Shown here in pieces: positions 32 through 61,518 of a stretch of 64,000 bases of DNA; position 1 is the stretch's first letter; each line of letters opens with the position of its first letter. The DNA lies in assembly GCA_951406725.2 (NCBI GenBank), contig OX597837.1:47492001-47556000 (forward strand). Reading direction: 5' to 3'. Below the pieces are notes generated by a model. It was not told the DNA's origin. It did no database searches and saw only the letters and a list, made by a program, of their open reading frames with translations. Position numbers and translations under genes: made by a program. The DNA is from Octopus vulgaris. Its lineage: Eukaryota.

Positions 32-3000
32 CTGTTGTCGTTGGTTCTTCAGTTGTGACTGTTGTTGTTGGTTCTTCAGTTGTTACTGTTGTTGTTGGTT
101 CTTCAGTTGTGACTGTTGTCGTTGGTGCTGCGCTGCTGCTACTGCTTGGTTGTTCCGTTGTTGTTGTTGTTGTCGGTGGTTGCTCAGTTATTGCATTTGT
201 TGGTCTCACATTTGCTGTTCTTGATTGACCAATTGTTGTTGTTGGTTCTTCAGTTGTGACTGTTGTTGTTGGTCCTTCAGTTGTGACTGTTGTTGTTGGT
301 CCTTCAGTTGTGACTGTCGTTGTTCGTCCTTCAGTTGTGACTGTCGTTGTTGGTTCTTCAGTTATGACTGTTGTTGTTGGTTCTTCAGTTGTGACTGTTG
401 TTGTTGGTTCTTCAGTTGTGACTGTTGTTGTTGGTCCTTCAGTTGTGACTGTTGTTGTTGGTCCTTCAGTTGTGACTGTTGTTGTTGGTTCTTCAGTTGT
501 GGCTGCTGTTGTTAGTTCTTCAGTTGTGACTGTTGTTGGTTCTTCAGTTGTGACTGTTGTTGGTTCTTCAGTTGTGACTGTTGTTGGTTCTTCAGTTGTT
601 ACTGTTGTTGTTGGTCCTTCAGTTGTTACTGTTGTTGTTGGTTCTTCACTTGTGGCTGTTGTTGTTGGTCCTTCAGTTGTGACTGTCGTTGATTCTTCAG
701 TTGTGGCTGCTGTTGTTGATTCTTCAGTTGTGACTGTTGTTGGTTCTTCAGTTGTTACTGTTGTTGTTGGTTCTTCAGTTGTTACTGTTGTTGTTGGTTC
801 TTCAGTTGTGGCTGTTGTTGTTGGTTCTTCAGTTGTGACTGTTGTTGTTGGTTCTTCACTTGTGGCTGTTGTTGTTGGTCCTTCAGCTGTGACTGTCGTT
901 GGTTCTTCAGTTGTGACTGTTGTTGGTTCTTCAGTTGTGACTGTTGTTGTTGGTTCTTCAGTTGTGACTGTTGTTGTTGGTCCCTCAGTTGAAACTGTTG
1001 TTGTTGGTTCTTCAGTTGTTACAGTTGTTGTTGGTTCTTCAGTTGTGGCTGCTGTTGTTGGTTCTTCTATTGTGACTGTTGTTGTTGGTTCTTCAGTTAT
1101 GGCTGTTGTTGTTGGTTCTTCAGTTGTGGCTGTTGTTCTTAGTTCTTCTATTGTGACTGCTGTTGATGATTCTTCAGTTGCGACTGCTGTTGATGATTCT
1201 TCAATTGTAACTGTTGTTGTTGGTTCTTCAGTTGTGACTGTTGTTGTTGGCTCTTCATTTGTGACAGTTGTAGTTGGTTCTTCAGTTGTGACTGTTGTTG
1301 TTGGTTCTTCAGTTGTGACTGTCGTTGTTCGTCCTTCAGTTGTGACTGTCGTTGTTGGTTCTTCAGTTATGACTGTTGTTGTTGGTTCTTCAGTTGTGAC
1401 TGTTGTTGTTGGTTCTTCAGTTGTGACTGTTGTTGTTGGTCCTTCAGTTGTGACTGTTGTTGTTGGTCCTTCAGTTGTGACTGTTGTTGTTGGTTCTTCA
1501 GTTGTGGCTGCTGTTGTTAGTTCTTCAGTTGTGACTGTTGTTGGTTCTTCAGTTGTGACTGTTGTTGGTTCTTCAGTTGTGACTGTTGTTGGTTCTTCAG
1601 TTGTTACTGTTGTTGTTGGTCCTTCAGTTGTTACTGTTGTTGTTGGTTCTTCACTTGTGGCTGTTGTTGTTGGTCCTTCAGTTGTGACTGTCGTTGATTC
1701 TTCAGTTGTGGCTGCTGTTGTTGATTCTTCAGTTGTGACTGTTGTTGGTTCTTCAGTTGTTACTGTTGTTGTTGGTTCTTCAGTTGTTACTGTTGTTGTT
1801 GGTTCTTCAGTTGTGGCTGTTGTTGTTGGTTCTTCAGTTGTGACTGTTGTTGTTGGTTCTTCACTTCTGGCTGTTGTTGTTGGTCCTTCAGCTGTGACTG
1901 TCGTTGGTTCTTCAGTTGTGACTGTTGTTGGTTCTTCAGTTGTGACTGTTGTTGTTGGTTCTTCAGTTGTGACTGTTGTTGTTGGTCCCTCAGTTGAAAC
2001 TGTTGTTGTTGGTTCTTCAGTTGTTACAGTTGTTGTTGGTTCTTCAGTTGTGGCTGCTGTTGTTGGTTCTTCTATTGTGACTGTTGTTGTTGGTTCTTCA
2101 GTTGTGGCTGTTGTTGTTGGTTCTTCAGTTGTGGCTGTTGTTCTTAGTTCTTCTATTGTGACTGCTGTTGATGATTCTTCAGTTGCGACTGCTGTTGATG
2201 ATTCTTCAATTGTAACTGTTGTTGTTGGTTCTTCAGTTGTGACTGTTGTTGTTGGCTCTTCATTTGTGACAGTTGTAGTTGGTTCTTCAGTTGTGACTGT
2301 TGTTGTTGGTTCTTCAGTTGTGACTGCTGTTGTCGGTTCTTCAGTTGTGACTGTTGTTGTTGGCTCTTCAGTTGTGACTGTTGTTGTTGGTTCTTCAGTT
2401 GTAACTGTTGCCGTTGGTTCTTCAGTTGTGACTGTTGTTGGTTCTTCAGTCGTAACAGTTGTTGTTGGTTCTTCAGCTGTGACTGTTGTTGAAGGTTCTT
2501 CAGTTGTGACTGTTGTTGTTGGTTCTTCAGTTGTAACTGTTGTTGTTGGCTCTTCAGTTGTGACTGTTGTTGGTTCTTCAGTTGCGACTGTTGTTGTTGG
2601 TTCTTCAGTTGTAACAGTTGTTGTTGGTTCTTCACTTGTGACTGTTGTTGTTGGTTCTTCAGCTGTGACTGTTGTTGTTGGATCTTCAGTTGAAACTGTT
2701 GTTGTTCGTTCTTCACTTGTGACTGTTGTTGTTGGTTCTTCAGTTGTGACTGTTGTTGTTGGATCTTCAGTTGTAACTGTTGTTGTTGGTTCTTCACTTG
2801 TGACAGTTGTTGTTGGTTCTTTAGCCTTCGGTGTTGTTATTGGTTCTTTAGCCTTTGGTGTTGTTATTGGTTCTTTACCCTTTGGTGTTGTTATTGGTTC
2901 TTTAGCCTTTGGTGTTGTTATTGGTTCTTTAGCCTTTTCTGTTGTTATTGGATCTTTAGCCTTTGGTGTTGTTATTGGATCTTTAGCCTTTGGTGTTGTT

Positions 3001-6000
3001 ATTGGTTCTTTAGCCTTTGGTGTTGTTATTGGTTCTTTAGCCTTTGGTGTTGTTATTGGTTCTTTAGCCTTTGGTGTTGTTATTGGTTCTTTAGACTTTG
3101 GTGTTGTTATTGTTTCTTTAGCCTTTGGTGTTGTTTTTGGTTCTTTAGCCTTTGGTGTTGTTGTTAGTTCTTTAGCCTTTGGTGTTGTTATTGGTTCTTT
3201 AGCCTTTGGTGTTGTTATTGGTTGTTTAGCCTTTGGTGTTGTTATTGGTTCTTTAGCCTTTGGTGTTGTTATTGGTTCTTTAGCCTTTGGTGTTGTTATT
3301 GGTTCTTTAGACTTTGGTGTTGTTATTGGTTCTTTAGCCTTTCGTGTTGTTATTGGTTCTTTAGCCTTTGGTGTTGTTATTGGTTCTTTAGCCTTTGGTG
3401 TTGTTTTTGGTTCTTTAGCCTTTGGTGTTGTTTTTGGTTCTTTAGCCTTTGGTGTTGTTTTTGGTTCTTTAGCCTTTGGTGTTGTTTTTGGTTCTTTAGC
3501 CTTTGGTGTTGTTTTTGGTTCTTTAGCCTTTGGTGTTGTTATTGGTTCTTTAGCCTTTGGTGTTGTTATTGGTTCTTTAGCCTTTGGTGTTGTTATTGGT
3601 TCTTTAGCCTTTGGTGTTGTTTTTGGTTCTTTAGCCTTTGGTGTTGTTATTGCTTCTTTAGCCTTTGGTGTTGTTATTGGTTCTTTAGCCTTTGGTGTTG
3701 TTTTTGGTTCTTTAGCCTTTGGTGTTGTTTTTGGTTCTTTAGCCTTTGGTGTTGTTTTTGGTTCTTTAGCCTTTGGTGTTGTTTTTGGTTCTTTAGCCTT
3801 TGGTGTTGTTTTTGGTTCTTTAGCCTTTGGTGTTGTTTTTGGTTCTTTAGCCTTTGGTGTTGTTTTTGGTTCTTTAGCCTTTGGTGTTGTTTTTGGTTCT
3901 TTAGCCTTTGGTGTTGTTATTGGTTCTTTAGCCTTTGGTGTTGTTTTTGGTTCTTTAGCCTTTGGTGTTGTTTTTGGTTCTTTAGCCTTTGGTGTTGTTT
4001 TTGGTTCTTTAGCCTTTGGTGTTGTTTTTTCTTTTGCCTTGTTCTTTAGCCTTTGGTGTTGTTTTTGGTTCTTTAGCCTTTGGTGTTGTTTTTGGTTCTT
4101 TAGCCTTTGGTGTTGTTTTGGTGTTGTTATTGGTTCTTTAGCCTTTGGTGTTGTTATTGGTTCTTTAGCCTTTGGTGTTGTTTTTGGTTCTTTAGCCTTT
4201 GGTGTTGTTTTTGGTTCTTTAGCCTTTGGTGTTGTTTTTGGTTCTTTAGCCTTGTTGTTTTTGGTTCTTTAGCCTTGGTGTTGTTTTTGGTTCTTTAGCC
4301 TTTGGTGTTGTTATTGGTTCTTTAGCCTTTGGTGTTGTTATTGGTTCTTTAGCCTTTGGTGTTGTTATTGGTTCTTTAGCCTTTGGTGTTGTTTTTGGTT
4401 CTTTAGCCTTTGGTGTTGTTTTTGGTTCTTTAGCCTTTGGTGTTGTTATTGGTTCTTTAGCCTTTGGTGTTGTTTTTTGGTGTTGGTTCTTTAGCCTTTG
4501 GTGTTGTTTTTGGTTCTTTAGCCTTTGGTGTTGTTTTTGGTTCTTTAGCCTTTGGTGTTGTTTTGGTTCTTTAGCCTTTGGTGTTGTTTTTGGTTCTTTA
4601 GCCTTTGGTGTTGTTTTTGGTTCTTTAGCCTTTGGTGTTGTTATTGGTTCTTTAGCCTTTGGTGTTGTTTTTGGTTCTTTAGCCTTTGGTGTTGTTTTTT
4701 TAGCCTTTGGTGTTGTTTTGGTTCTTTAGCCTTTGGTGTTGTTTTTGGTTCTTTAGCCTTTGGTGTTGTTTTGGTTCTTTAGCCTTTGGTGTTGTTTTTG
4801 GTTCTTTAGCCTTTGGTGTTGTTATTGGTTCTTTAGCCTTTGGTGGTGGTTTTGTTTTTTTTGGTTCTTTAGCCTTTGGTGTTGTTTTTGGTTCTTTAGC
4901 CTTTGGTGTTGTTTTTGGTTCTTTAGCCTTTGGTGTTGTTCTTTAGTGTTGTTTTTGGTTCTTTAGCCTTTGGTGTTGTTATTGGTTCTTTAGCCTTTGG
5001 TGTTGTTGTTGGTTCTTTAGCCTTTGGTGTTGTTATTGGTTCTTTAGCCTTTGGTGTTGTTATTGGTTCTTTAGCCTTTGGTGTTGTTTTTGGTTCTTTA
5101 GCCTTTGGTGTTGTTTTTGGTTCTTTAGCCTTTGGTGTTGTTATTGGTTCTTTAGCCTTTGGTGTTGTTTTTGGTTCTTTAGTTTGGTTGGTTCTTTAGC
5201 CTTTGGTGTTGTTATTGGTTCTTTAGCCTTTGGTGTTGTTTTTGGTTCTTTAGCCTTTGGTGTTGTTTTTGGTTCTTTAGCCTTTGGTGTTGTTTTTGGT
5301 TCTTTAGCCTTTGGTGTTGTTTTTGGTTCTTTAGCCTTTGGTGTTGTTTTTGGTTCTTTAGCCTTTGGTGTTGTTTTTGGTTCTTTAGCCTTTGGTGTTG
5401 TTTTTGGTTCTTTAGGCTTTGGTGTTGTTATTGGTTCTTTAGCCTTTGGTGTTGTTTTTGGTTCTTTAGCCTTGGTGTTGTTTTTGGTTCTTTAGCCTTT
5501 GGTGTTGTTTTTGGTTCTTTAGCCTTTGGTGTTGTTTTTGGTTCTTTAGCCTTTGGTGTTGTTTTTGGTTCTTTAGCCTTTGGTGTTGTTTTGGTTCTTT
5601 AGCCTTTGGTGTTGTTATTGGTTCTTTAGCCTTTGGTGTTGTTATTGGTTCTTTAGCCTTTGGTGTTGTTATTGGTTCTTTAGCCTTTGGTGTTGTTTTT
5701 GGTTCTTTAGCCTTTGGTGTTGTTTTTGGTTCTTTAGCCTTTGGTGTTGTTATTGGTTCTTTAGCCTTTGGTGTTGTTTTTGGTTCTTTAGCCTTTGGTG
5801 TTGTTTTTGGTTCTTTAGCCTTTGGTGTTGTTTTTGGTTCTTTAGCCTTTGGTGTTGTTTTTGGTTCTTTAGCCTTTGGTGTTGTTTTTGGTTCTTTAGC
5901 CTTTGGTGTTGTTTTTGGTTCTTTAGCCTTTGGTGTTGTTATTGGTTCTTTAGCCTTTGGTGTTGTTTTTGGTTCTTTAGCCTTTGGTGTTGTTATTGGT

Positions 6001-7994
6001 TCTTTAGCCTTTGGTGTTGTTTTTGGTTCTTTAGCCTTTGGTGTTGTTTTTGGTTCTTTAGCCTTTGGTGTTGTTTTTGGTTCTTTAGCCTTTGGTGTTG
6101 TTTTTGGTTCTTTAGCCTTTGGTGTTGTTTTTGGTTCTTTAGCCTTTGGTGTTGTTATTGGTTCTTTAGCCTTTGGTGTTGTTATTGGTTCTTTAGCCTT
6201 TGGTGTTGTTATTGGTTCTTTAGCCTTTGGTGTTGTTTTTGGTTCTTTAGCCTTTGGTGTTGTTTTTTGGTTCTTTAGCCTTTGGTGTTGTTTTTGGTTC
6301 TTTAGCCTTTGGTGTTGTTATTGGTTCTTTAGCCTTTGGTGTTGTTGGTTCTTTAGCCTTTGGTGTTGTTTTTTGGTTCTTTAGCCTTTGGTGTTGTTTT
6401 TGGTTCTTTAGCCTTTGGTGTTGTTTTTGGTTCTTTAGCCTTTGGTGTTGTTTTTGGTTCTTTAGCCTTTGGTGTTGTTTTTGGTTCTTTAGCCTTTGGT
6501 GTTGTTTTTGGTTCTTTAGCCTTTGGTGTTGTTTTTGGTTCTTTAGCCTTTGGTGTTGTTATTGGTTCTTTAGCCTTTGGTGTTGTTTTTGGTTCTTTAT
6601 CCTTTGGTGTTGTTTTTGGTTCTTTAGCCTTTGGTGTTGTTTTTGGTTCTTTAGCCTTTGGTGTTGTTTTTTGGTTCTTTAGCCTTTGGTGTTGTTTTTA
6701 GTTCTTTAGCCTTTGGTGTTGTTTTTGGTTCTTTAGCCTTTGGTGTTGTTATTGGTTCTTTAGCCTTTGGTGTTGTTTTTGGTTCTTTAGCCTTTGGTGT
6801 TGTTATTGGTTCTTTAGCCTTTGGTGTTGTTTTTGGTTCTTTAGCCTTTGGTGTTGTTTTTGATTCTTTAGCCTTTGGTGTTGTTTTTGGTTCTTTAGCC
6901 TTTGGTGTTGTTTTTGGTTCTTTAGCCTTTGGTGTTGTTATTGGTTCTTTAGCCTTTGGTGTTGTTATTGGTTCTTTAGCCTTTGGTGTGGTGTTATTGG
7001 TTCTTTAGCCTTTGGTGTTGTTATTGGTTCTTTAGACTTGGTGTTGTTGTTGGTTCTTTTGTGCTGTTGTTGTTGGTTCTTTAGCTTGTGTTGTTTTGGT
7101 CTTAGCTTGGTGTTGTTATTGGTTCTTTACTTTGGTGTTGTTATTGGTTCTTTAGTTTGTGTTGTTTTGGTCTTAGTTTTGTTGTTGTTGGTTCTTACTT
7201 TGGTGTTTGTTTTGGTTCTTTAGCCTTTGGTGTTGTTATTGGTTCTTTAGCCTTTGGTGTTGTTATTGGTTCTTTAGCCTTTGGTGTTGTTTTGGTTCTT
7301 TAGCTGTTGTTATTGGTTCTTTAGCCTTTGGTGTTGTTATTGGTTCTTTAGCCTTTGGTGTTGTTTTTGGTTCTTTAGCCTTTGGTGTTGTTATTGGTTC
7401 TTTAGCTTTGGTGTTGTTTTGGTTCTTTAGCCTTTGGTGTTGTTATTGGTTCTTTAGCCTTTGGTGTTGTTATTGGTTCTTTAGCCTTTGGTGTTGTTAT
7501 TGGTTCTTTAGCCTTTGGTGTTGTTATTGGTTCTTTAGCCTTTGGTGTTGTTATTGGTTCTTTAGACTTTGGTGTTGTTATTGGTTCTTTAGCCTTTGGT
7601 GTTGTTTTTGGTTCTTTAGCCTTTGGTGTTGTTATTGGTTCTTTAGCCTTTGGTGTTGTTTTTGGTTCTTTAGCCTTTACTGTTGTTGTTGTTCCTTTGG
7701 TTGTTACTCTTGTTGTTTCTGGTTCCTTGGTTTTTCGTGTTGTTGTAGGTTTTTCAACCTTTGCTGTTGTTGGTACTGTTGTTACTGAAGTTGTTGGTTG
7801 TTCAGTTGTTGCTTCTGTTCCTGTTTGATCTCTGGTTGCTCTCCCTGGTGTTGGCTTGTTTGTCTTTTTTTCTTGTTCTCTTGTTGTTTTTTGTTCACTT
7901 GTTTTTGTGTCTTTTACTCTTGTTGTTCCTAGTGCAGTTGCTTTCGTTGGTCGTGTAGTTGTTGTTCTTGTCTCTCTACTTGAATTGTCTTTTC
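32..7994 (-). CDS. Giant mucin (PTS) exon of a type II transmembrane SEA-domain mucin-like gene; gene continues beyond window start
   Basis: Acceptor tttgttcctattctAG (AG at 7996-7995) and donor GTaagtg (31-30), phase 1 to phase 1. Reads (G)KDNSSRETRTTTTRPTKATALGTTRVKDTKTSEQKTT..., then KEP(K/I)TTPKA repeats (about 7680-2821), then EEPTTTVTT repeats (about 2820-235), a short unique Thr/Ser stretch and 3 more repeats. Indels in about 4030-7420 break the frame and the length (7963) is not a multiple of 3, probably assembly error in T homopolymers. Confidence 0.88.
235..2820 (-). repeat. Coding 27/24-bp tandem repeat, anionic block (EEPTTTVTT)
   Basis: Plus-strand unit ggttcttcagttgtgactgttgttgtt with 24-bp variants. 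Contains a 1005-bp in-frame internal duplication (316 vs 1321). Confidence 0.95.
2821..7680 (-). repeat. Coding 27-bp tandem repeat, cationic block (KEP[K/I]TTPKA)
   Basis: Plus-strand unit ggttctttagcctttggtgttgtt(a/t)tt, about 180 copies. Confidence 0.95.
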
Positions 7995-8349
7995 CTAGAA
8001 TAGGAACAAATTCAGAAACTTAATTGATATATTTTGTGTCTCTACGTTTGTGTTTTTCCCCTATATTTTACTATTCTCCATAATAATTCTACCTTCTGTA
8101 TCTTTGCTCTACGTTAAGGAAGATATTTTATGCACTTTTTGCATTGTATCCCCTTGCTTACCTATACCATGTAGGCGTACTTTGTAGCAGGGACTGTTTC
8201 CAGTTCGTTTTATTTCCATATATACGCATTATATGTGTGTTTGCGTGTGTATGCGTGTTTATGTATGTTTGTGTGTTTGCCTGTGTGTATAGATCGATAA
8301 ATAAATATAGATAGTTATACATTCATTTACGTAGACAAGCAAACACATG

Positions 8350-13731: not shown

Positions 13732-14094
13732 AAATGGAGTCAAACGCAGGTGTTATTCAAATCTTTATACTTCTGACATGTTTCGAAGAAAACATTAATA
13801 TTACTCCGGGGAGAATAAAATGATGTAAAACAATGCAATAATTTTTGTCAGGGAAAAAAAAGAGAAACAAAACACATCTGGAAAAACTGGAAAAAATGGG
13901 AAAAAGACCGACCGAGAAGAAATAGAGGATAAATATATAAAATACGGAAGAACGGGTTTGCTGCAGTAATAGAGCAGTTACGACAGAGGATCATGGCAAA
14001 AAAAAAAAAACCCCAGAAGATCAGAAGATTTGTGAACAGAAGCAGTTCGAGGAGAAGAGATTGTTAAAAAATAACCTGAAGCAATTCTTCTGAA

Positions 14095-14315
14095 CGTTAG
14101 AATGGGAAAATTGAAGATGTGCCAAAAAGCCTGATTGGTATTGATGTGTCTTCCTCTGTCATATTGTGCATCTTCGTCTTTGTTGTCTATCTGCTGGCTG
14201 CGTTTCTGCATAACAGTGTATGTTGCAGCACCTAAACCTTTCTTTATATATTTGCAAACATACTTAATAGAGTTAACAGAGTTGCAAAATTCAATGTTGA
14301 CTCTGGCTACCTTTA
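14095..14315 (-). mobile_element. Helitron Rep/helicase coding fragment
   Basis: VNIEFCNSVNSIKYVCKYIKKG...DEDAQYDRGRHINTNQAFWHIFNFPI matches the Helitron Rep KYxxKYxxKG motif region. Confidence 0.85.
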
Positions 14316-14519
14316 CTCGATTCTGCTTCCCTGTAGAATACTGACCATTTACATCTACCTCGTCTCCTCTGGCAGATGGTGAGAACATTGTTCTCAGAAA
14401 CTTTTTTCAAAATTAAAATGGGTATTAAATGAAAAAAAAAAATGAGTTACGTGAATATCTTCACAAGAGTAATTGAAATAAGTGGCGATTGTGGAAGGCC
14501 GCACGCAGCTACACACACA

Positions 14520-18036: not shown

Positions 18037-18421
18037 TCTCTATATTATAAATCTGAAATGCGAAAATTTTGTTTGTCTGCTTTTGGCATTGAGAACGGGT
18101 TAAAGGCCTCTAGATCCCGTCGGATTGACACCAAAATTTACAGGGACATGTAAAATGAGGTGAGGATGCCAGTGGGCTACGTTAGAAATCCCTATCTTAA
18201 AAGGTGTCGTTGCTAGGACCAAAAACGCACTTTGACAAGTCTACTCCCATTCTTTAATGTATCTGTCTTCCTCCGTCACTCACTCTATTTCCTCCCTTCC
18301 CATCACTTTCTATATATAACGTCGTTTAACAGCGTCTAACTGCCCTTCACTTTCTCTTTATAACGTCGTCAAACAGCGTTCTATATCTCCCCCTCACCGC
18401 CTTCGACAGCGCTTTCACACA

Positions 18422-18454
<33 letters not shown>

Positions 18455-18549
18455 CGTCTGTCTGTATTCATAGACAGAATTATCATCGCCGCAACCACCA
18501 CACAATCATGAGAACAAATATTATGAATCGGATATTTATTGGGTTAATT

Positions 18550-18604
<55 letters not shown>

Positions 18605-18820
18605 CTATATATAAATATGTATATTAAACTTTTTAATACTTTTTGATAGTTATATATATTTTTTTTTAAATAATAGATATAAATTAATAATTTTGATTTT
18701 AAATTTAAATAATTTAAATTTTTTAATTTTATATTTTATATATTTTGTATATTATATTTTTATTTTTATGTTTCCGTTTATGTTTTTCACTGTTTGATTT
18801 GCCTAATCTCTAATTTAATT

Positions 18821-18887
<67 letters not shown>

Positions 18888-20032
18888 ATACATTTGTATA
18901 TATAATGCGTACACACACACACACATATATATATATAATGCGTATATATATATATATATATATATATAATGTGTGCATTATGTGGTCGGTTGTGCTGAAA
19001 ATATGCACATCTATGTTAAAAGTGCTGGCGAGTTTGCATGGCAACTATTTTTTTCCTCAAATGAAAGGCGTGACCTCTAGGACAAAATTCCTCATCTTAT
19101 AAAATGTGACCCGAGTAGACCCGAATGAAATCGGGTTATATTAACCAAAATGTGAAAAGTGGTCTAAATGGGGCTGGAATGGGATTAAAATTTACAGGAG
19201 CTGGTGTTTAGGAATTCTCTGTTACATGAAGCTAAAAAATTTGCGCCAGCCTTTAAATCTTCAATGTGTTGCCGTCCATGATGAAGAAGTTTTGAATGCT
19301 TGCATTGGTGAGTCTACTGTCGTGAGAAAGAATCACTTCAAAGCTTGGTGTTTAGGAATTTTCTTTTACATCAAGTTCAAAATTTTACTATGTTACTGTC
19401 CGTCGTTAAGAAATGCCAGCCATGGTGACTCTACTATCCTCAGATTCTATCCTTTCAAACTTTGGTTTCCAATATTTTTTAATTTTTATTCAGCTCGCAA
19501 GTTCGTCTGTCCCTTTTAAATGATAGTGTTTTGCTGTCTGCCTTGAAGCAGACCTTTCCGTTGTCACTGCCTGATATTTATGATTGATCTTTCAAACTAC
19601 TTTCTTTCTCAACTTACTCAAGATCTTTTGTTGTTTATAAATGGGAGAGAGATAGATAGAGAAAGATAGAGAGTAAGAGAAAGCGAGGGAGAGTCCGAGA
19701 GAAAGGAAGAGTAAGAGAGTGGGAAAGGGAAAGAGAAAGGAGAGAGAAACAAAGAGGGAGAATCATCATCATCATCTTCATCATCGTTTAACGTCCGTTT
19801 TCTGTGCTAGCACGGGTTGGACGGTTTGACCGGGGTCTGGGAAGCCAGGAGGCTGCACCAGGCTCCAGTCTGATCTGGCAGTGTTTCTACAGCTGGATGC
19901 CCTTCCTAACGCCAACCACTCCGTGATTGTAGTGGGTGCCACGTTCGGATGGTGCTTTTTACGTGCCGAAAGGATGCAACAGAAAATAACAACCACACTC
20001 TTATCCGGCGTAGAGCGGGTCACCTTAAGCTA

Positions 20033-23137: not shown

Positions 23138-23256
23138 CTTTTCAGTAAATTCCCGTTTTTTTTCTATCGTTAGTTTGTTTTCCGGATCTGCATATTCCTG
23201 CTTGTAAGTTTCGTTGAAGTACAGGTCCACATTCATCGTCCTTTTCACTGGATCAA
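23138..23256 (-). CDS. SEA domain exon 1
   Basis: Acceptor ttcttgttttctgtattatAG, donor GTaggta, 119 nt, phase 1 to 0. Encodes (V)DPVKRTMNVDLYFNETYKQEYADPENKLTIEKKREFTEK, which fits a SEA N-terminal strand/loop/helix and has an NET sequon. Confidence 0.88.
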
Positions 23257-23749: not shown

Positions 23750-25560
23750 AACCTTCCAACGGCTCAAAACACATCTGATGATCTTTACTATTCTTAACAG
23801 GCAAACATTCAGTAGAAACTCTACAGGACATTCCATTCCAATCTCTTTTAACCATTTCCCTAATGCACCAATTCTTGCAGATTCTTATTAGATTTCGGGC
23901 TCTAAATCCCTTACAGATTTCTTGTCCTAAATCCTCGCTATCACAAATTTTAAGGGATTGTATGTTTTTAACTTTTTACTTTCTTTCTTCACATTCCTTA
24001 AACCAAATGGACATGATGGATCAATCGTTAAGCAAATTTGTGTTATATCTGGCTTGTTATGTTCTATCTTATGCGTTTGAATTGGAAAATCCCACAAAAT
24101 CTGGCATTTTTCCGGCTCAAACACTCTTTCAAGCCGATGATCGTCCAAGTACTTCCAACTTCAATTCACCATTTCTGACAAAGCTTCCAGTGTAAAACTT
24201 TTACAACTTGGCCATGCCTTCATTTCTTATATTCTCCTCGGGCTAACTAGCGACATTCTGCAGCAATGTGTTCCATTGTTTCAGCCCAAATTCCACACAC
24301 TCTACATTTTCCCGATTCCTTCTCTCCATACACATATTTTCCCGAGTTTTTAACGGTTCATCTCGAGCTGCTATAACAAGGCTCTCTGTTTCTTTTTTTA
24401 ATTGCCCTTTTTTAACCAAGCCCAGGTTTGTGTTCCACATACGCCCTCAGTGGCTTTCCAAAACTGACCATGCAAAGGGTTCTCTTCGATCTGTCTGACA
24501 TGCTCTCTTTGTATTTCATTCTTGTCCTTTTCTCCTGTTCCACATTTGGTCACTTGTTCTTTATTCATTGCTTTAGTAACTTCGCTTTACTGTTCTATAA
24601 ATAATCTAGCAGGCTGCTTCGTTCCATCTGCACAAACTCTTCTACAGAAATTAAACCTCGTCCACCCTGATCTCTCTCCAAGTACAACAGGTACATATCA
24701 GCTTCCGGGTGGTGGGTTCCATACATTGCCAACAGTTTTCTAGTTTTTTTCTTACCAACTTTCTGTAAGTCGCTTTTTGTTCAATCCACAATTCCAACCC
24801 CAGATCTTGAATTTATCTCTTCAATAACATCTTTTTAAATTTTACCCTCACTGTAATATATTTCCTTCGTCTTGTATACTCCCCTATTTGTAATTTGTTT
24901 CATCTTTTCATGTTTTATTTCATCTGCTTCCAGTATCCCCCAATGTTTATACCACTGTCCTTTCTAAACCGCTTTCATTGTTTTCACATTTGGCATTTCA
25001 ATTGCCTGACTTCCTTCAAATCTTTTCCATTTTCTTATCAATATAGCGAACACTCCATTCCTAAATTCCATCATTTCAGAAAACGTGAACAATATGTCCA
25101 AGACTTTCAAACTGCTTCTCATTTATTGCGTAAAGCCTTAAAATGGAGATTGTTTATCTGACCATATGCTTTTCCCAAGTCCTAAGCTATTTTAACGTCC
25201 CATCGTATCAAACTGAGCTGTGTCATGGCCACTACAAATAGTAATGGAGATAAGCGATCTCCTTGGCATATAACAAGTCTGATGTTCATTTTTCCAAGTT
25301 TTTGTTTTCCTTCGGTCAATTCAATGTTTTATATTTTCCTTGGCCTTTTCTCCACACCTTCTGCCACTCCAAACATGATCATTGTTAAACTTATCCAACT
25401 GGGCGGCACCATATCAGATGCTTATCTGTAGTCCAACCATGCTACCTCAATCCCGTCAATCTGAGTCTAAAATTTCTAACAACTGCTCTTTAGTTGCACT
25501 TGTTCGCAAATGGTTACTTTCCAGATGCTTATACAACTTTTTTCCGCCAAGACAACGCCA
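23750..25560 (-). mobile_element. Degenerate R4/Dong-like LINE (RT to REL endonuclease)
   Basis: Fragments KCQILWDFPIQTHKIEHNKPDI and GQLKKETESLVIAARD, plus RT-region remnants upstream. Confidence 0.8.
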
Positions 25561-26389
25561 AGAAAAGAGGGCGAGAGAAAAAGAGACGTGAGGCAGAGGG
25601 AATGTTATTGTAAAGTTTCCATATGATTAATTGAAGGGAAAGAGATGAGAAAGAAAAAGGAGAGAGAGAAAGAGGATAAGGCAAAGAGTCGGACAGAAAG
25701 AGGGAGAGAGAAAAAGGAGAGAGAGAAAGAGGATAAGGCAAAGAGTCGGACAGAAAGAGGGAGAGAGAAAAAGAGCGTCCATGAAGTGTTGTAGTGTGAA
25801 AGTAATAGTTATTACGTGGTTAAAAAAGTTAGTTGAAGGTAGTAATATAAAGAAAGAGAGAAATATAATTTTAGGTGAGGAGTAATGTTCTGATGGTGAA
25901 AGGTAGAGGGAGAGGAATGAAAGAGAGAGGGGGAGGGAGGTGGTGATGGTGGTAGTGGTGCGTTGATAATGAAAATTTGTTTTTATTTTAATTGAACTAA
26001 GTTTTTTTATATCACCTGTCACATAACGCATGCGCATAAGTCCAATTCTGTGAAATTTTCACGCTTATTTACATGGCAGATATTTGCAATTTAACTAAAG
26101 GTTGTGTCATATGTACAGGATTTTCTTTTTGCTCATGGGAAAAGTAGAGAAATGGGAAAATAAGTGTGAATATTTATTTTATGAGTGCTGTGTATAAAGT
26201 CTATAACATTGTGCATAAAGTATATAAAGTGCATTAAGTAATCATTATATTCCAATTTCCTTCACTTTTCAATGAATAGCTGATGAGTGACTATCTTTTG
26301 ATACAGACACAAGACAGGTTACGCTTTCAGGATTTTGGATAGAGTTTTCAGAAATAACCCAAAAGGTTTATCATTAATTCCGAGAATAT

Positions 26390-29607: not shown

Positions 29608-32600
29608 ATCTGTTGGAGGGGGGACGAAGAAGGCAGGATCTGTGGTGGGGAGGAAGAAGGCAGGATCTGTGGTGGGGAGTAAGAAGGCAGGATCTGTGGT
29701 GGGGAGGAAGAAGGCAGGATCTGTGGTGGGGAGGAAGAAGGCAGGATCTGTGGTGGGGAGCAAGAAGGCAGGATCTGTGGTGGGGAGGAAGAAGGCAAGA
29801 TCTGTGGTGGGGACGAAGAAGGCAAGATCTGTGGTGGGGAGGAAGAAGGCAGGATCTGTGGTGGGGAGGAAGAAGGCAGGATCTGTGGTGGGGAGGAAGA
29901 AGGCAGGATCTGTGGTGGGGAGGAAGAAGGCAGGATCTGTGGTGGGGAGGAAGAAGGCAGGATCTGTGGTGGGGAGGAAGAAGGCAGGATCTGTGGTGGG
30001 GAGGAAGAAGGCAGGATATGTGGTGGGGAGGAAGAAGGCAGGATATGTGGTGGGGAGGAAGAAGGCAGGATCTGTGGTGGGGAACAAGAAGGCAGGATCT
30101 GTGGTGGGGAGGAAGAAGGCAGGATCTGTGGTGGGGAGGAAGAAGGCAGGATCTGTGGTGGGGAGGAAGAAGACAGGATCTGTGGTGGGGAACAAGAAGG
30201 CAGGATCTGTGGTGGGAAGGAAGAAGGCAGGATCTGTGGTGGGGAGGAAGAAGGCAGGATCTGTGGTGGGGAGGAAGAAGGCAGGATCTGTGGTGGGGAG
30301 GAAGAAGGCAGGATCTGTGGTGGGGAGGAAGAAGGCAGGATCTGTGGTGGGGAGGAAGAAGGCAGGATCTGTGGTGGGGAGGAAGAAGGCAGGATCTGTG
30401 GTGGGGAGGAAGAAGGCAGGATCTGTGGTGGGGAGGAAGAAGGCAAGATCTGTGGTGGGGAGGAAGAAGGCAAGATCTGTGGTGGGGAGCAAGAAGGCAG
30501 GATCTGTGGTGGGGAGGAAGAAGGCAGGATCTGTGGTGGGGAGGAAGAAGGCAGGATCTGTGGTGGGGAGGAAGAAGGCAGGATCTGTGGTGGGGAGGAA
30601 GAAGGCAGGATCTGTGGTGGGGAGGAAGAAGGCAGGATCTGTGGTGGGGAGCAAGAAGGCAGGATCTGTGGTGGGGAGGAAGAAGGCAAGATCTGTGGTG
30701 GGGAGGAAGAAGGCAGGATCTGTGGTGGGGAGGAAGAAGGCAGGATCTGTGGTGGGGAGTAAGAAGGCAGGATCTGTGGTGGGGAGGAAGAAGGCAGGAT
30801 CTGTGGTGGGGAGGAAGAAGGCAGGATCTGTGGTGGGGAGGAAGAAGGCAGGATCTGTGGTGGGGAGGAAGAAGGCAGGATCTGTGGTGGGGAGGAAGAA
30901 GGCAGGATATGTGGTGGGGAGGAAGAAGGCAGGATCTGTGGTGGGGAACAAGAAGGCAGGATCTGTGGTGGGGAGGAAGAAGGCAGGATCTGTGGTGGGG
31001 AGGAAGAAGGCAGGATCTGTGGTGGGGAGGAAGAAGGCAGGATCTGTGGTGGGGAACAAGAAGGCAGGATCTGTGGTGGGAAGGAAGAAGGCAGGATCTG
31101 TGGTGGGGAGGAAGAAGGCAGGATCTGTGGTGGGGAGGAAGAAGGCAGGATCTGTGGTGGGGAGGAAGAAGGCAGGATCTGTGGTGGGGAGGAAGAAGGC
31201 AGGATCTGTGGTGGGGAGGAAGAAGGCAGGATCTGTGGTGGGGAGGAAGAAGGCAGGATCTGTGGTGGGGAGGAAGAAGGCAGGATCTGTGGTGGGGAGG
31301 AAGAAGGCAAGATCTGTGGTGGGGAGGAAGAAGGCAAGATCTGTGGTGGGGAGCAAGAAGGCAGGATCTGTGGTGGGGAGGAAGAAGGCAGGATCTGTGG
31401 TGGGGAGGAAGAAGGCAGGATCTGTGGTGGGGAGGAAGAAGGCAGGATCTGTGGTGGGGAGGAAGAAGGCAGGATCTGTGGTGGGGAGGAAGAAGGCAGG
31501 ATCTGTGGTGGGGAGGAAGAAGGCAGGATCTGTGGTGGGGAGCAAGAAGGCAGGATCTGTGGTGGGGAGGAAGAAGGCAAGATCTGTGGTGGGGACGAAG
31601 AAGGCAAGATCTGTGGTGGGGAGGAAGAAGGCAGGATCTGTGGTGGGGAGGAAGAAGGCAGGATCTGTGGTGGGGAGTAAGAAGGCAGGATCTGTGGTGG
31701 GGAGGAAGAAGGCAGGATCTGTGGTGGGGAGGAAGAAGGCAGGATCTGTGGTGGGGAGCAAGAAGGCAGGATCTGTGGTGGGGAGGAAGAAGGCAAGATC
31801 TGTGGTGGGGACGAAGAAGGCAAGATCTGTGGTGGGGAGGAAGAAGGCAGGATCTGTGGTGGGGAGGAAGAAGGCAGGATCTGTGGTGGGGAGGAAGAAG
31901 GCAGGATCTGTGGTGGGGAGGAAGAAGGCAGGATCTGTGGTGGGGAGGAAGAAGGCAGGATCTGTGGTGGGGAGGAAGAAGGCAGGATCTGTGGTGGGGA
32001 GCAAGAAGGCAGGATCTGTGGTGGGGAGGAAGAAGGCAAGATCTGTGGTGGGGAGCAAGAAGGCAGGATCTGTGGTGGGGAGGAAGAAGGCAGGATCTGT
32101 GGTGGGGAGCAAGAAGGCAGGATCTGTGGTGGGGAGGAAGAAGGCAAGATCTGTGGTGGGGAGGAAGAAGGCAGGATCTGTGGTGGGGAGGAAGAAGGCA
32201 GGATCTGTGGTGGGGAGGAAGAAGGCAGGATCTGTGGTGGGGAGGAAGAAGGCAAGATCTGTGGTGGGGAGGAAGAAGGCAGGATCTGTGGTGGGGAGGA
32301 AGAAGGCAGGATCTGTGGTGGGGAGTAAGAAGGCAGGATCTGTGGTGGGGAGCAAGAAGGCAGGATCTGTGGTGGGGAGGAAGAAGGCAGGATCTGTGGT
32401 GGGGAGGAAGAAGGCAGGATCTGTGGTGGGGAGGAAGAAGGCAGGATCTGTGGTGGGGAGGAAGAAGGCAGGATCTGTGGTGGGGAGGAAGAAGGCAGGA
32501 TCTGTGGTGGGGAGGAAGAAGGCAGGATCTGTGGTGGGGAACAAGAAGGCAGGATCTGTGGTGGGGAGGAAGAAGGCAGGATCTGTGGTGGGGAGGAAGA

Positions 32601-33394
32601 AGGCAGGATCTGTGGTGGGGAGGAAGAAGGCAGGATCTGTGGTGGGGAGGAAGAAGGCAGGATCTGTGGTGGGGAGGAAGAAGGCAGGATCTGTGGTGGG
32701 GAGGAAGAAGGCAGGATCTGTGGTGGGGAGGAAGAAGGCAGGATCTGTGGTGGGGAGGAAGAAGGCAGGATCTGTGGTGGGGAGGAAGAAGGCAGGATCT
32801 GTGGTGGGGAGGAAGAAGGCAGGATCTGTGGTGGGGAATAAGGCAGGATCTGTGGTGGGGAGGAAGAAGGCAGGATCTGTGGTGGGGAGGAAGAAGGCAG
32901 GATCTGTGGTGGGGAGCAAGAAGGCAGGATCTGTGGTGGGGAGGAAGAAGGCAGGATCTGTGGTGGGGAGCAAGAAGGCAGGATCTGTGGTGGGGAGGAA
33001 GAAGGCAGGATCTGTGGTGGGGAGCAAGAAGGCAGGATCTGTGGTGGGGAGGAAGAAGGCAAGATCTGTGGTGGGGACGAAGAAGGCAGGATCTGTGGTG
33101 GGGAGTAAGAAGGCAGGATCTGTGGTGGTGAGCAAGAAGGCAGGATCTGTGGTGGGGAGGAAGAAGGCAAGATCTGTGGTGGGGAGGAAGAAGGCAGGAT
33201 CTGTGGTGGGGAGGAAGAAGGCAGGATCTGTGGTGGGGAGGAAGAAGGCAGGATCTGTGGTGGGGAGGAAGAAGGCAGGATCTGTGGTGGGGAGGAAGAA
33301 GGCAGGATCTGTGGTGGGGAGCAAGAAGGCAGGATCTGTGGTGGGGAGGAAGAAGGCAGGATCTGTGGTGAGGAGGAAGAAGGCAGGATCTGTG
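29608..33394. repeat. 27-bp G-rich minisatellite, about 140 units
   Basis: Unit ggatctgtggtggggaggaagaaggca, highly homogeneous. Variant pattern repeats at an 864-bp offset. Confidence 0.97.
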
Positions 33395-33514: not shown

Positions 33515-35682
33515 CGTATGTATGTATGTATGTATGTATGTATGTATGTATGCATGTATGTATGTATGTATGTATGTATGTATGTATGCATGTATGTATG
33601 TACGTATGTATGTATGTATGTATGTATGTATGTATGTACTTATGTTTGTATGTACGTATGTATGTATGTATGTACGTATGTATGTATGTATGTATGTATG
33701 TATGTATATATGTATGTACGTATGTATGTATGTTTGTATGTATGTACGTATGTATGTACGTATGTATGTATGTACGTATGTATGTGTGTATGTATGTATG
33801 TATGTATGTATGTGTGTATGTATGTGTGTATGTATGTATGTATGTATGTATGTATGTATGTATGTATGTATGTATGTATGTATGTATGTATGTATGTGTG
33901 TATGTATGTGTGTATGTATGTATGTATGTATGTATGTACGTATGTATGTACGTATGTATGTATGTATGTATGTATGTATGTATGTACGTACGTATGTATG
34001 TATGTATGTATGTATGTATGTATGTATGTATATATGTACGTATGTATGTATGTATGTATGTATGTATGTATGTACGTACGTATGTATGTATGTATGTATG
34101 TATGTATGTATGTATGTACGTATGTATGTATGTATGTATGTATGTATGTATGTATGTATGTATGTATGTATGTATGTACGTATGTATGTACGTATGTATG
34201 TATGTATGTATGTATGTATGTACGTATGTATGTACGTATGTATGTACGTATGTATGTATGTACGTATGTATGTATGTATGTATGTATGTATGTATGTATG
34301 TACGTACGTATGTATGTATGTATGTATGTATGTATGTACGTATGTATGTATGTATGTATGTATGTACGTATGTATGTACGTATGTATGTATGTATGTATG
34401 TATGTATATATGTACGTATGTACGTATGTATGTATGTATGTTTGTATGTATGTACGTATGTATGTACGTATGTATGTATGTATGTATGTATGTATGTATG
34501 TATGTACGTTCGTATGTATGTATGTATGTATGTATGTATGTATATATGTACGTATGTATGTATGTATGTATGTATGTATGTATGTACGTACGTATGTATG
34601 TATGTATGTATGTATGTATGTATGTATGTACGTATGTATGTATGTATGTATGTATGTATGTATGTATGTATGTATGTATGTATGTATGTATGTACGTATG
34701 TACGTATGGATGTATGTATGTATGTATGTATGTACGTATGTATGTACGTATGTATGTACGTATGTATGTATGTACGTATGTATGTATGTATGTATGTATG
34801 TACGTATGTATGTACGTATGTATGTACGTATGTATGTATGTATGTATGTATGTACGTATGTATGTATGTATGTATGTATGTATGTATGTATGAATGTATG
34901 TATGTATGTATGTACGTATGTATGTATGTATGTATGTATGTATGTATGTATGTATGTATGTATGTATGTATGTATGTATGTATGTATGTATGTATGTACG
35001 TACGTATGTATGTATGTATGTATGTATGTATGTATGTTATGTATGTATGTATGTATGTATGTATGTATGTATGTATGTATGTATGTATGTATGTATGTAT
35101 GTATGTATGTATGTATGTATGTATGTATGTATGTATGTATGTATGTATGTATGTATGTATGTATGTATGTATGTATGTATGCGTGTATGTATGTACGTAT
35201 GTATGTATGTATGTATGTATGTATGTATGTATGTATGTATGTATGTATGTATGTATGCGTGTATGTATGTATGTATGTATGTATGTATGTATGTATGTAC
35301 GTATGTAAGTACGTATGTATGTATGTATGTATGTATGTATGTATGTATGTATGTATGTATGTATGTATGTATGTATGTATGTATGTATGTATGTATGTAT
35401 GTATGTATGTATGTACGTATGTATGTATGTATGTATGTACGTTTGTATGTATGTATGTATGTATGTATGTATGTATGTATGTATGTATGTATGTACGTAT
35501 GTATGTATGTATGTATGTATGTACGTATGTATGTATGTATGTATGTATGTATGTATGTATGTATGTATGTATGTATGTATGTATGTATGTATGTATGTAT
35601 GTACGTACGTATGTATGTATGTACGTATGTATGTACGTATGTTTGTATGTATGTATGTACGTATGTATGTATGTATATATGT
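33515..35682. repeat. 2.2-kb (TATG)n microsatellite with interspersed TACG variants
   Basis: Direct reading. Confidence 0.97.
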
Positions 35683-35738
35683 ACATGAGCGTACACGCCC
35701 ATGTGTGTGCGTACGTGCGAGGGTGTTGTGCCTGTACC

Positions 35739-44001: not shown

Positions 44002-45009
44002 CACATCCAAACATGCACATACAGATAACGTGATGGATAAAATAAATTGATTTTATTTACCTGTCGGTATGCCATCTTCACAGCCTGTATTTAAATCCTT
44101 CACTCTTATGATAAACTTTTTTTTATCAGTAAATATTACTCCACAGAAATTACTGGTTACTGTCGTAGGAAACCTGGGAGTATCTGTGTGTACACTCACA
44201 CACATACACACACACACACATAAAGTTGTCCACCCAACTTTTCGGTCTGATAAAACCAAATACCTGTCAAATACTTGTATCGATATTCTTGACTACGAAC
44301 ACCCCTCAAAACTGTGATTTATGACTAAGTAAGAAATCCTTCCTTGGTAAAATCCTGTATTTGTTGGGTGAAGAAGCAGTGAAATACTCGGCTTCATCGA
44401 ACGGATTAACCCTTCTGGCCAAATGTCTGCTGTTCTACTTGAATCAGAAACAATATTTATTATTGACGTCGTTGTTGTTATTTGTTTTTGTTTTTGCTTT
44501 TTCCTGTTGTTTTACTTATTCTTATTGTCGCGATTATCTGTCTGTATTGAAAGGTTTTAAATTCGATAATGAAAATCGTGCATGGGTACACCGGTTGTGT
44601 CACAACTACTGCAACTATTGTCGTTATTGTTCTTTCCCTTATTTGTAGTAGCAGCAGCAGCAGCAGCGTTGAACACTATTTAAACCTACCGTATTCTTTA
44701 ATAATCTCATTATTCCTTCTTTCCAGTTTGTACACTTGAATTTTCTCCCCCTCCCTCCATCTCTCACCAGCCAATCTCCCACCATCACCCTCATGATAAC
44801 ACCTTCGCACTTTAATCACTCCGCTCTTCCTCGCTTATCTTCACCTGATAACAAAAACAACAACAAGAGCAGTAAGAGAGAGCAAACCTCCGCCAAGGCA
44901 ACACCAACGTTCTCTCAATGATTAGCCGGAGAGGATTTTTAAAATGAGAAGATCTGAAATAAACTCGACTTCTCTCACAAACGACAATTCGAAAAATGAA
45001 CCCTGCCGC

Positions 45010-60640: not shown

Positions 60641-61518
60641 CTAGCTTAAGGTGACCCGCTCAACGTGCGGATAAGAGCATGGTTGTTACTTTCTGTTGCT
60701 TCCTTTCTGTTTTTTTATCACCACATTCTCCCTCTTTGTTTCTCTCTCCTTTCTCTCTCACTTTCCCACTCTCTTACTCTTCCTTTCTCTCGGACTCTCC
60801 CTCGCTTTCTCTTACTCTCTATCTTTATCTATCTATCTCGCTCCCATTTATAAAGGACAAAAGATCTTGAGTAAGTTGAGAAAGAAAGTAGTTTGAAAGA
60901 TCATTCATAAATATCAGGCAGTGACAACGGAAAGGTCTGCTTCAAGACAGACAGCAAAACACTAACATTTAAAAGGGACAGACGAACTTGCGAGCTGAAT
61001 AAAAAATTTTTTAAATATTGGAAACCAAAGTTTGAAGGGATAGAATCTGAGGATAGTAGAGTCACCATGGCTGGTATTTCTTAACGACGGACAGCAACGT
61101 AGTGGCAGTTTAACGGCTGGCGTAAAATTTTGAACTTGATGTAAAAGAAAATTCCTAAACATTAAGTTTTGAAGTGATTCTTTCTCACGACAGTAGACTC
61201 ACCAATGCAAGCATTCAAAACTTCTTCATCATGGACGGCAACACATTGAAGATTTAAAGGCTGGCGCAAATTTTCTAGCTTCATGTAACAGAGAATTCCT
61301 AAACACCCGCTCCTGTAAATTTTGATCCCCTTCAAGCCCCATTTAGACCACTTTTCACATTTTGGTTAATATAACCCGATTTCATTTTATAAGATGAGGA
61401 ATTTTGTCCTAGAGGTCACGCCTTTCATTTGAGGAAAAAAATAGTTGCCATGCAAACTCGTCAGCACTTTTAACATAGATGTGCATATTTTCAGCTCAAC
61501 CGACCACATAATGCACAC

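What the first reader, a model, noticed from the sequence alone, without database searches (positions are those of the whole stretch)
235..7680. Charge-segregated diblock mucin: cationic KEP(K/I)TTPKA block followed by anionic EEPTTTVTT block
Seen: two 27-nt arrays meet in frame at about 2820 (ITTPKAKEPTTTVTSEEP). Both share the core x-GAA-CCA-A(A/T/C)A-ACA-ACA (xEPxTT), so they appear to derive from one ancestral 9-mer. The membrane-proximal block (about 180 units) has net +1 to +2 per unit and 2 Thr. The distal block (about 95-100 units) has net -2 and 5 Thr per unit. Inference: a natural block-polyampholyte bottle-brush that could self-associate or coacervate, bind anionic surfaces or microbes through the Lys block, and hydrate through the heavily O-glycosylated acidic block. 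It is a candidate lubricant, adhesive or mucus component.
Basis: partly seen in the sequence, partly recalled or inferred. Interest (0 to 1): 0.85.

Follow-up and report, generated by a model that had tools for sequence, protein, structure and literature searches.

The report
Octopus surface mucin with charge blocks
An octopus cell-surface protein gene carries one giant exon that encodes a long positively charged mucin stretch followed by a long negatively charged one, most likely a sheddable surface brush, although the repeat is broken as assembled and self-sticking of the two blocks is not shown.

Summary
The two arrays are real and meet in frame at about 2822 on the minus strand: about 178 AKEP(K/I)TTPK units (+0.17 charge per residue), then about 98 EEPTTTVTT-type units (-0.20). 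They fill one 7,963-nt phase-1/1 exon (7994-32) of an Octopus type II membrane protein (O. sinensis LOC115229658; 242 of 246 residues identical): cytoplasmic tail, membrane helix, SEA domain with a GSIL motif, the mucin exon, and in the database model a second SEA domain. One spliced contig joins the SEA exon to this exon, and second-SEA peptides occur in published skin-mucus proteomics. These are probably assembly errors, but that is unproven. Best reading: an inverted-topology, SEA-cleavable surface mucin whose two blocks probably carry different O-glycan coats. Self-coacervation is poorly supported: a crude model gives at most 0.26 M critical salt, below seawater, and anionic glycans could cancel the Lys charge. 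No orthologous exon could be read, so conserved block order is not shown. New variant of a known kind.

The parts
44061..44075 (-). First coding bases (start codon, 5 residues) at the end of an upstream exon
   Evidence: GT donor follows; matches the N-terminus of P0001
28642..28921 (-). Exon for cytoplasmic tail and type II signal-anchor helix (residues about 66-95, basic residues on the N side)
   Evidence: AG/GT borders, hydropathy 2.9 over 21 residues, no N-terminal signal peptide; 100% identical over 90 aa to P0001; helix 66-95 in model
23138..23256 (-). SEA domain 1, exon a
   Evidence: AG/GT borders, matches P0001
13485..13555 (-). SEA domain 1, exon b
   Evidence: AG/GT borders, matches P0001
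12128..12282 (-). SEA domain 1, exon c, with the GSIL motif in the beta2-beta3 hairpin
   Evidence: its 3' end is the loose end of a spliced contig of run X4
32..7994 (-). Giant mucin exon, 7,963 nt as assembled, phase 1 at both ends, about 2,650 codons
   Evidence: AG acceptor before 7994, GTAAG donor after 32; spliced contig at the acceptor
7681..7994 (-). Non-repetitive Thr/Lys/Arg-rich linker (107 residues, net +11); holds the internal donor near 7899 used by the RefSeq model
   Evidence: X4 contig reads on to 7813
2822..7680 (-). Cationic block, about 178 AKEP(K/I)TTPK units, about 1,620 residues, 24 units with frameshifting indels between 4050 and 7431
235..2821 (-). Acidic block, EEPTTTVTT-type units, 854 residues, open frame; includes a 1,005-nt tandem duplication (302-1321 / 1307-2326)
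32..234 (-). Non-repetitive spacer and last three acidic units before the donor

Best explanation
A very large cell-surface mucin built in type II orientation. Shown: N-terminal cytoplasmic tail, one membrane helix, a SEA domain, then one exon of about 2,650 codons with a cationic, Thr-poorer block next to the membrane and an acidic, Thr-dense block further out; the database model adds a second SEA domain and the start of another mucin stretch downstream. Inferred: the Thr residues are O-glycosylated, giving a brush up to 0.8-0.96 um in contour; both SEA domains self-cleave at Gly-Ser, so that force or proteolysis releases the diblock into mucus as a barrier, lubricant and decoy, as for MUC1. 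Inferred role of the charge split: the two blocks are substrates for different GalNAc-transferases and so form two glycan zones, a sparser inner zone of lubricin-like K/E units that can hold weakly to anionic mucus glycans and a dense, anionic outer zone. The frameshifts in the Lys block are taken to be assembly errors (about 80%).
For: Gene model with canonical splice sites and 242 of 246 residues identical to P0001. Pfam SEA E 1.3e-12, two stretches; model with two SEA folds, GS at the hairpin turns, pLDDT 72-95 in most of them; Foldseek hits include the TMPRSS and MUC16 SEA domains, TM by target 0.61-0.71. One contig of run X4 (363 nt, depth 2.9) joins SEA exon c to the exon and reads 86 nt past the RefSeq internal donor. 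Skin-mucus PSM table of PMC10138644: 3 spectra of a second-SEA peptide shared by LOC115229658 and LOC118767817. For errors: 0 of 43 junction-side Lys units and 0 of 98 acid units shift frame against 24 of 135 in the rest (Fisher P 0.0014); that part has 24 frameshifts against 8 substitutions, while an intronic 27-mer array has 58 substitutions and 0 frameshifts in 138 units; 13 of 19 indel bases sit in A runs (P 0.014). Precedents read as passages: MUC1 SEA self-cleavage and releasable decoy (PMC6491460); PTTTK and PTTTE peptides are glycosylated by different PGANT9 isoforms, and Sgs3 is itself a two-block mucin (PMC6115407); lubricin KEPAPTTP repeats are hydrated and zwitterionic (PMC11092771).
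Against: As assembled the frame closes at residue 410 and no read was laid over a frameshift. The same assembly is free of frameshifts in another homogeneous array, so errors would have to be specific to this A-rich array; A-run slippage also happens in vivo. No spliced contig reaches the Lys units; the only contig bridging linker and Lys units in a guessed-RNA run (X1) runs 9 nt into the intron. The one discriminating mucus peptide belongs to LOC118767817, not LOC115229658, and no repeat peptide is in the stored part of the table. Absence of stop codons among substitutions is not significant (P about 0.5) and the synonymous excess is not either (12 of 30, P 0.12). The C-terminus lies outside the window. 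Glycosylation, cleavage and tissue of expression were not tested.
Confidence: 0.55

Rival explanations
1. The exon is the stalk of a type II protease or receptor (enteropeptidase, corin-like or MAM-LDLa type) that holds a C-terminal working domain far from the membrane; the charges only keep the stalk soluble and extended.
For: Membrane helix followed directly by SEA is the layout of the structure neighbours, 6 of 10 rows being clusters with trypsin domains (TM 0.35-0.47, weak). The top Foldseek and PDB profile hits are TMPRSS SEA domains. An Argonauta protein in the cluster of a weak hit (P0011, E 1e-4) has TM-SEA-mucin-LDLa-MAM.
Against: Neither P0001 nor P0003 shows anything but SEA and mucin sequence; a search of 726-2,070-residue proteins with both SEA domains found 0 of 1,535 candidates (weak negative); the closest paralogue P0005 is also only membrane helix, mucin and a partial SEA-like stretch.
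Confidence: 0.2
2. The frameshifts are real: this allele or gene copy makes a 410-residue product or is degraded, or uses the internal donor near 7899 or skips the symmetric exon, and the diblock is rarely or never translated.
For: 24 of 178 units shift frame, only 21% of the array lies in the coding frame as assembled; RefSeq model P0001 leaves the exon at the internal donor; phase 1/1 allows skipping; the other long array in the window has no frameshift.
Against: Spliced contig reads past the internal donor; 1,326 codons across the junction are open; indels outnumber substitutions three to one only in the homogeneous A-rich centre.
Confidence: 0.15
3. One reading: the released diblock folds back or self-coacervates through Lys-Glu attraction and acts as a wet adhesive, gel or antimicrobial.
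For: Strong charge segregation; two SEA cleavage motifs could free a piece that holds both blocks; low-salt, acidic secretory compartments could favour association (inference).
Against: Voorn-Overbeek estimate: 0.26 M critical salt if each residue is one lattice site, none or micromolar with realistic residue volumes, none with glycans; Debye length 0.36-0.41 nm at 0.55-0.7 M (seawater strength recalled). The model is crude: it gives only 0.27-0.41 M for fully charged control chains and ignores block connectivity and divalent ions. Octopus skin mucus holds sulphated and other acidic glycans (PMC5607860 passages). Net charge of the exon is about +110, not balanced.
Confidence: 0.1

Closest known systems
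Cell-surface SEA mucins (MUC1, MUC16)
   Same: Membrane anchor, SEA domain with Gly-Ser motif, very long Thr/Pro tandem repeat, likely shedding (PMC6491460 passages; MUC16 SEA structural hits).
   Different: Opposite topology (type II, repeats C-terminal to the SEA domain); two oppositely charged repeat blocks in one exon; contour up to about 0.9 um for this exon alone against 200-500 nm quoted for MUC1.
Type II transmembrane serine proteases (matriptase, TMPRSS6/11, enteropeptidase, molluscan corin-like)
   Same: N-terminal anchor followed directly by a SEA domain.
   Different: No protease, CUB, LDLa or Fz domain seen in the window or in P0001/P0003; a 2,650-residue mucin and a second SEA follow instead.
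Lubricin (PRG4) mucin domain
   Same: KEPAPTTP repeats (PMC12262190, PMC11092771 passages) resemble KEP(K/I)TTPK: K/E pair, two Thr, two Pro.
   Different: Lubricin units are neutral before glycosylation and sit in a secreted protein with globular ends; these are net cationic and membrane-tethered. Convergence is the likely cause (inference).
Drosophila Sgs3 glue mucin and PGANT9A/B
   Same: Two-block mucin with a cationic PTTTK block; backbone charge decides which transferase acts (PMC6115407 passages).
   Different: Sgs3 is secreted, and its other block is neutral rather than acidic; no SEA domain or anchor.
Titin PEVK region (PPAK and poly-E motifs)
   Same: Disordered chain with two motif types, where PPAK motifs and calcium tune the stiffness of Glu clusters (PMC9100103 abstract).
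   Different: Intracellular, not glycosylated, motifs interspersed rather than two long blocks.
Generic EEPTTT repeats
   Same: Near-identical acidic units occur in a spider protein, Streptococcus suis proteins and an LPXTG surface protein.
   Different: None of the 5 of 7 hits read has a Lys-type block.

Membership tests
Cell-surface SEA mucins (MUC1/MUC16 class) | Long Pro/Thr/Ser tandem-repeat ectodomain | tested here: met
   (frame broken in 24 units as assembled)
Cell-surface SEA mucins (MUC1/MUC16 class) | Single transmembrane anchor | tested here: met
Cell-surface SEA mucins (MUC1/MUC16 class) | Membrane-proximal SEA domain | tested here: met
   Pfam E 1.3e-12 for P0001; SEA1 alone (P0002) 26.3 bits against a cut-off of 26.4; fold
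Cell-surface SEA mucins (MUC1/MUC16 class) | Gly-Ser autoproteolysis site that is actually cleaved | tested here: inconclusive
   GSIL and GSLI lie at the hairpin turns; cleavage cannot be tested here
Cell-surface SEA mucins (MUC1/MUC16 class) | Type I topology: repeats N-terminal, cytoplasmic tail C-terminal | tested here: not met
   Anchor at residues about 66-95, no signal peptide, repeats downstream; MUC1 layout. Works like, but not filed as a member.
Cell-surface SEA mucins (MUC1/MUC16 class) | Dense O-glycosylation | not testable with these tools
   Inferred from Thr content only
Type II transmembrane serine proteases | N-terminal type II anchor followed by SEA | tested here: met
Type II transmembrane serine proteases | C-terminal trypsin-type domain | tested here: inconclusive
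   None in P0001 or P0003, but the gene's 3' end is outside the window and no genome is held
Lubricin/PRG4 | KEP-x-TTP type repeat | tested here: met
   (similar, not identical)
Lubricin/PRG4 | Secreted protein with globular N-terminal domain and C-terminal hemopexin domain | tested here: not met
   N-terminal part is cytoplasmic tail, anchor and SEA
Gel-forming mucins | N-terminal VWD and Cys-rich polymerising domains (definition recalled) | tested here: not met
   Pfam finds only SEA in the N-terminal part
Self-coacervating block polyampholyte | Long segregated blocks of opposite charge | tested here: met
Self-coacervating block polyampholyte | Phase separation at the working ionic strength after glycosylation | tested here: inconclusive
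   Crude mean-field estimate is against it; needs experiment

The most novel reading that the evidence does not exclude
The gene is a chain of SEA-bounded mucin cassettes in inverted topology. Self-cleavage at the flanking SEA domains releases a micrometre-long cationic-then-acidic diblock glycopolymer, the blocks are glycosylated separately because of their backbone charge, and the released chains self-organise (inner adhesive zone, outer lubricating zone, or salt- and pH-switched coacervate) in octopus skin or sucker mucus: a genetically encoded block-copolymer surface coat.
Probability: 0.15. Interest if true: 0.8.

Novelty: new variant of a known kind. Interest (0 to 1): 0.45.

Why it matters
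Cephalopod surface mucins are poorly annotated because giant repeat exons break gene models: the RefSeq model of this gene leaves the 8-kb exon after about 96 nt, so proteomics of octopus mucus cannot see its repeats. If the exon is translated whole, it is a natural test case for whether backbone charge blocks programme separate glycan zones along one mucin, and a template for bio-inspired lubricants. A type II, multi-SEA mucin also shows that the MUC1-style sheddable brush can be built in the opposite orientation. No paper in the library names the gene or the repeats in its main text.

Tried and rejected
No whole genome is held, so the 3' part of the gene could not be read. Longer homologues with both SEA domains: 0 of 1,535 candidates. 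Junction peptide search: 7 hits among 8,000 scored candidates, none named as cephalopod; of the 5 read, none has a Lys-type block. ESM Atlas on the junction: best 0.80, chance level. Sequencing runs: no RNA holder listed on record; 17 of 20 holders are guessed RNA. Depth of repeat contigs was considered as proof that the Lys block is transcribed (X3 265.6 against 2.1, X4 1,048 against 2.9 for unique contigs; window predicts 48-75-fold) and rejected: the DNA-like run X18 shows far higher summed repeat depth, so slight DNA carry-over could give the same, and summed contig depth is no copy number. Reads were laid only on 7600-8230, so the frameshift sites, the block junction and the 3' donor stay unchecked. 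Tests for selection on the repeats (stops, synonymous share) had no power. Ink proteome supplement of PMC10142993: 0 occurrences of four identifiers in the stored text. The supplement of the larger skin-mucus study PMC11431876 could not be read and may hold more peptides; its main text does not name the gene. The PMC10138644 table was cut when stored, so its counts are lower bounds. Earlier scan notes: 3 look-ups, nothing. A candidate exon at 10387-10289 was dropped because P0001 and the X4 contig join exon c directly to the mucin exon. Literature searches for a polyampholyte mucin with lysine-rich block and for the gene and repeat names gave 0 papers; some searches were seen as listings only, apart from the papers cited as read.
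Full report
OBSERVATION. The window is octopus DNA. Two 27-nt arrays occupy 32-2820 and 2806-7771 and code on the minus strand. One frame is open from 4049 to the donor at 32 and crosses the junction at about 2822 as ITTPKA-KEPTTTVTS-EEP. The upstream block has 180 anchor-to-anchor segments, 150 of 27 nt: 78 AKEPKTTPK, 54 AKEPITTPK, 18 variants; +0.173 net charge per residue, 22.5% Thr. The downstream block has 98 units, 854 residues, -0.201 per residue, 49% Thr. On the 1,326 open residues the charge-pattern score SCD is -6.2 against 94.3 +/- 3.5 for 200 shuffles.

24 of 178 complete Lys units shift the frame, all between 4050 and 7431; read as assembled, the spliced protein stops at residue 410 after nine Lys units. 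I judge these to be assembly errors at about 80%: 0 of 43 junction-side units and 0 of 98 acid units are affected against 24 of 135 (P 0.0014); the affected part has 24 frameshifts and 8 substitutions, whereas an intronic 27-mer array in the same window has 58 substitutions and no frameshift in 138 units; 13 of 19 indel bases in near-normal units sit in A runs (P 0.014). Against: that clean intronic array shows that the assembly is not generally error-prone in repeats, A-run slippage also occurs in vivo, and no read was laid on a frameshift. The acid block also holds a 1,005-nt tandem duplication with 2 mismatches in 1,020 nt, either a recent unequal crossover or an assembly duplication.

THE GENE. 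The arrays fill one exon, 7994-32, 7,963 nt, phase 1 at both ends. Five upstream coding exons with AG/GT borders give a start at 44075, a cytoplasmic tail, a signal-anchor helix with basic residues on its N side and no signal peptide, and a SEA domain. The product differs from O. sinensis LOC115229658 (P0001) at 4 of 246 residues and from an O. vulgaris model (P0002) at 14 of 214. P0001 leaves the big exon at an internal donor near 7899 and continues into a second SEA domain and a further mucin stretch that starts with acidic EEPTT units and passes into garbled AKEPIT units; it lies on an 84.5-kb scaffold, so its tail is uncertain. Pfam finds SEA at E 1.3e-12 in two stretches; SEA1 alone scores 26.3 bits against a cut-off of 26.4. 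An AlphaFold2 model from a 14-row alignment (mean pLDDT 66.5, pTM 0.35) shows helix 66-95 and two SEA folds with GSIL and GSLI at the hairpin turns; Foldseek ranks TMPRSS6, a TMPRSS SEA domain and MUC16 SEA5 first, mixed further down with unrelated ferredoxin-like folds; a profile search of the PDB gave 3 sequences, two TMPRSS SEA chains and ADGRF1.

EXPRESSION. No holder is on record as RNA. Of four runs laid on 7600-8230, X4 has one contig (363 nt, depth 2.9) that covers 7813-7996 and continues into the end of SEA exon c (start of the loose end found at 12130): a spliced molecule that reads 86 nt past the RefSeq internal donor. X3 has an exon-internal contig (7734-7985). X1 bridges linker and first Lys unit (7649-8003) but enters the intron by 9 nt, so it may be DNA or unspliced RNA. 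X18 covers 7652-8169 and confirms the intron-exon edge. No spliced contig reaches the Lys units. In the skin-mucus PSM table of PMC10138644 (supplement rows, file cut when stored) three spectra match a second-SEA peptide shared by LOC115229658 and LOC118767817, one matches LOC118767817 alone, and none contains KEP or TEEPT. So a second-SEA-type domain of this family is in mucus; the repeats are not shown at protein level.

RELATIVES. The exhaustive search with P0001 returned 14 proteins at E up to 0.001; 10 were looked up: fragments from O. sinensis, O. vulgaris and O. bimaculoides, a paralogue P0005 with type II anchor and an acidic TTDQTS-type repeat, multi-SEA fish proteins, a starfish protein and an Argonauta protein. 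The longer Argonauta cluster member P0017 has anchor, SEA, a short mildly acidic stretch, then a cationic repeat (+4 to +5 per 50 residues), LDLa and MAM: charge zones again, but with unrelated units, in the opposite order, and only a weak homologue. No orthologue of the big exon was recovered, so conservation of block order is neither shown nor excluded. On ancestry: the units share 19 of 27 nt in register (codon-shuffle P 0.05-0.06); the junction unit is a hybrid; and loose ends in X1 (1 contig) and X18 (5 contigs) read, by hand, as an intermediate unit AEEPTTTVK that is not in this window, which favours one unit family with more arrays elsewhere. EEPTTT units alone are generic, found in a spider and in bacteria.

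MECHANISM. Shown: topology, SEA fold, Gly-Ser motifs, block composition, splicing into the exon. Inferred: O-glycosylation gives a brush of 0.82-0.96 um contour; SEA self-cleavage lets it be shed, as described for MUC1 (PMC6491460, passages); cleavage at both SEA domains would free a piece with both blocks. For the charge split, the best precedent is enzymatic: Drosophila PGANT9B glycosylates PTTTK and PGANT9A glycosylates PTTTE peptides, and Sgs3 is a two-block mucin (PMC6115407, passages). The two octopus blocks would thus carry different glycan coats and densities (2 against 4-5 Thr per unit). The Lys unit also resembles the lubricin repeat, described as hydrated and zwitterionic (PMC12262190, PMC11092771, passages). 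Self-coacervation is the weaker reading: net charge is about +280 and +11 against -178; a Voorn-Overbeek estimate gives 0.26 M critical salt in the most favourable case and none or micromolar values with realistic volumes or glycans; the Debye length at 0.55-0.7 M is 0.36-0.41 nm; one anionic group on 77% of Lys-block Thr cancels its charge. The model is crude (0.27-0.41 M for fully charged controls; no block or divalent-ion effects). Octopus skin mucus holds sulphated and other acidic glycans (PMC5607860, passages).

COMPARISON AND VERDICT. It works like a MUC1/MUC16-type sheddable surface mucin but fails their type I topology; it starts like a type II serine protease but no protease domain is visible and the 3' end is out of reach; it is not lubricin or a gel-forming mucin. 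Charge-zoned disordered chains are known (Sgs3; titin PEVK, PMC9100103 abstract), but a search for the gene and repeat names gave 0 papers, as did one for a polyampholyte mucin with a lysine-rich block. Verdict: real feature, new variant of a known kind, interest 0.45; the self-organising diblock reading has about 15% probability and would deserve 0.8.

Noticed in passing
window 29620-33394: A second 27-nt array (about 140 units, 97% match, no frameshifting unit) in the intron upstream of the membrane exon; all three minus-strand frames are open for more than 1,270 codons, but it is not part of P0001. Probably an intronic minisatellite.
   Followed up: partly
window 33516-35683: A 2.2-kb (GTAT)n array directly beside the intronic 27-mer array.
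   Followed up: no
window 302-1321 and 1307-2326: Near-exact 1,005-nt tandem duplication inside the acidic block (2 mismatches): recent unequal crossover or assembly duplication.
   Followed up: partly
loose ends at 7654-7691: Contigs of runs X1 and X18 carry related units with Glu in place of Lys (AEEP-type, followed by VK) that are absent from the window, and summed repeat depth in X18 is far above the unique depth: further arrays of this unit family probably exist in other exons or paralogues.
   Followed up: partly
P0005 (O. sinensis XP_036368988.1): Paralogue with a related cytoplasmic tail and type II anchor, followed by an acidic TTDQTS-type repeat and then a SEA-like stretch; on a contig of the same length as LOC118767817, suggesting a gene cluster of type II SEA mucins.
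   Followed up: partly
P0017 (Argonauta hians GAB1603854.1): Anchor-SEA-mucin-LDLa-MAM protein whose mucin is mildly acidic first and cationic later.
   Followed up: partly
window 62811-63823 and about 24200-25600: Decayed reading frames that look like non-LTR retrotransposon reverse transcriptase remains (resemblance recalled, not searched).
   Followed up: no
window 13978-14406: Minus-strand frame resembling a Helitron Rep/helicase fragment (resemblance recalled, not searched).
   Followed up: no
window about 18200-19600 and 60650-62150: By eye, one element of about 1.4 kb occurs twice in opposite orientation; likely a transposon.
   Followed up: no
P0009, P0010, P0013, P0015: Proteins made of three to four SEA-like domains with short Thr-rich linkers and hydrophobic ends (two named from cyprinid fish), uncharacterised in the databases.
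   Followed up: no
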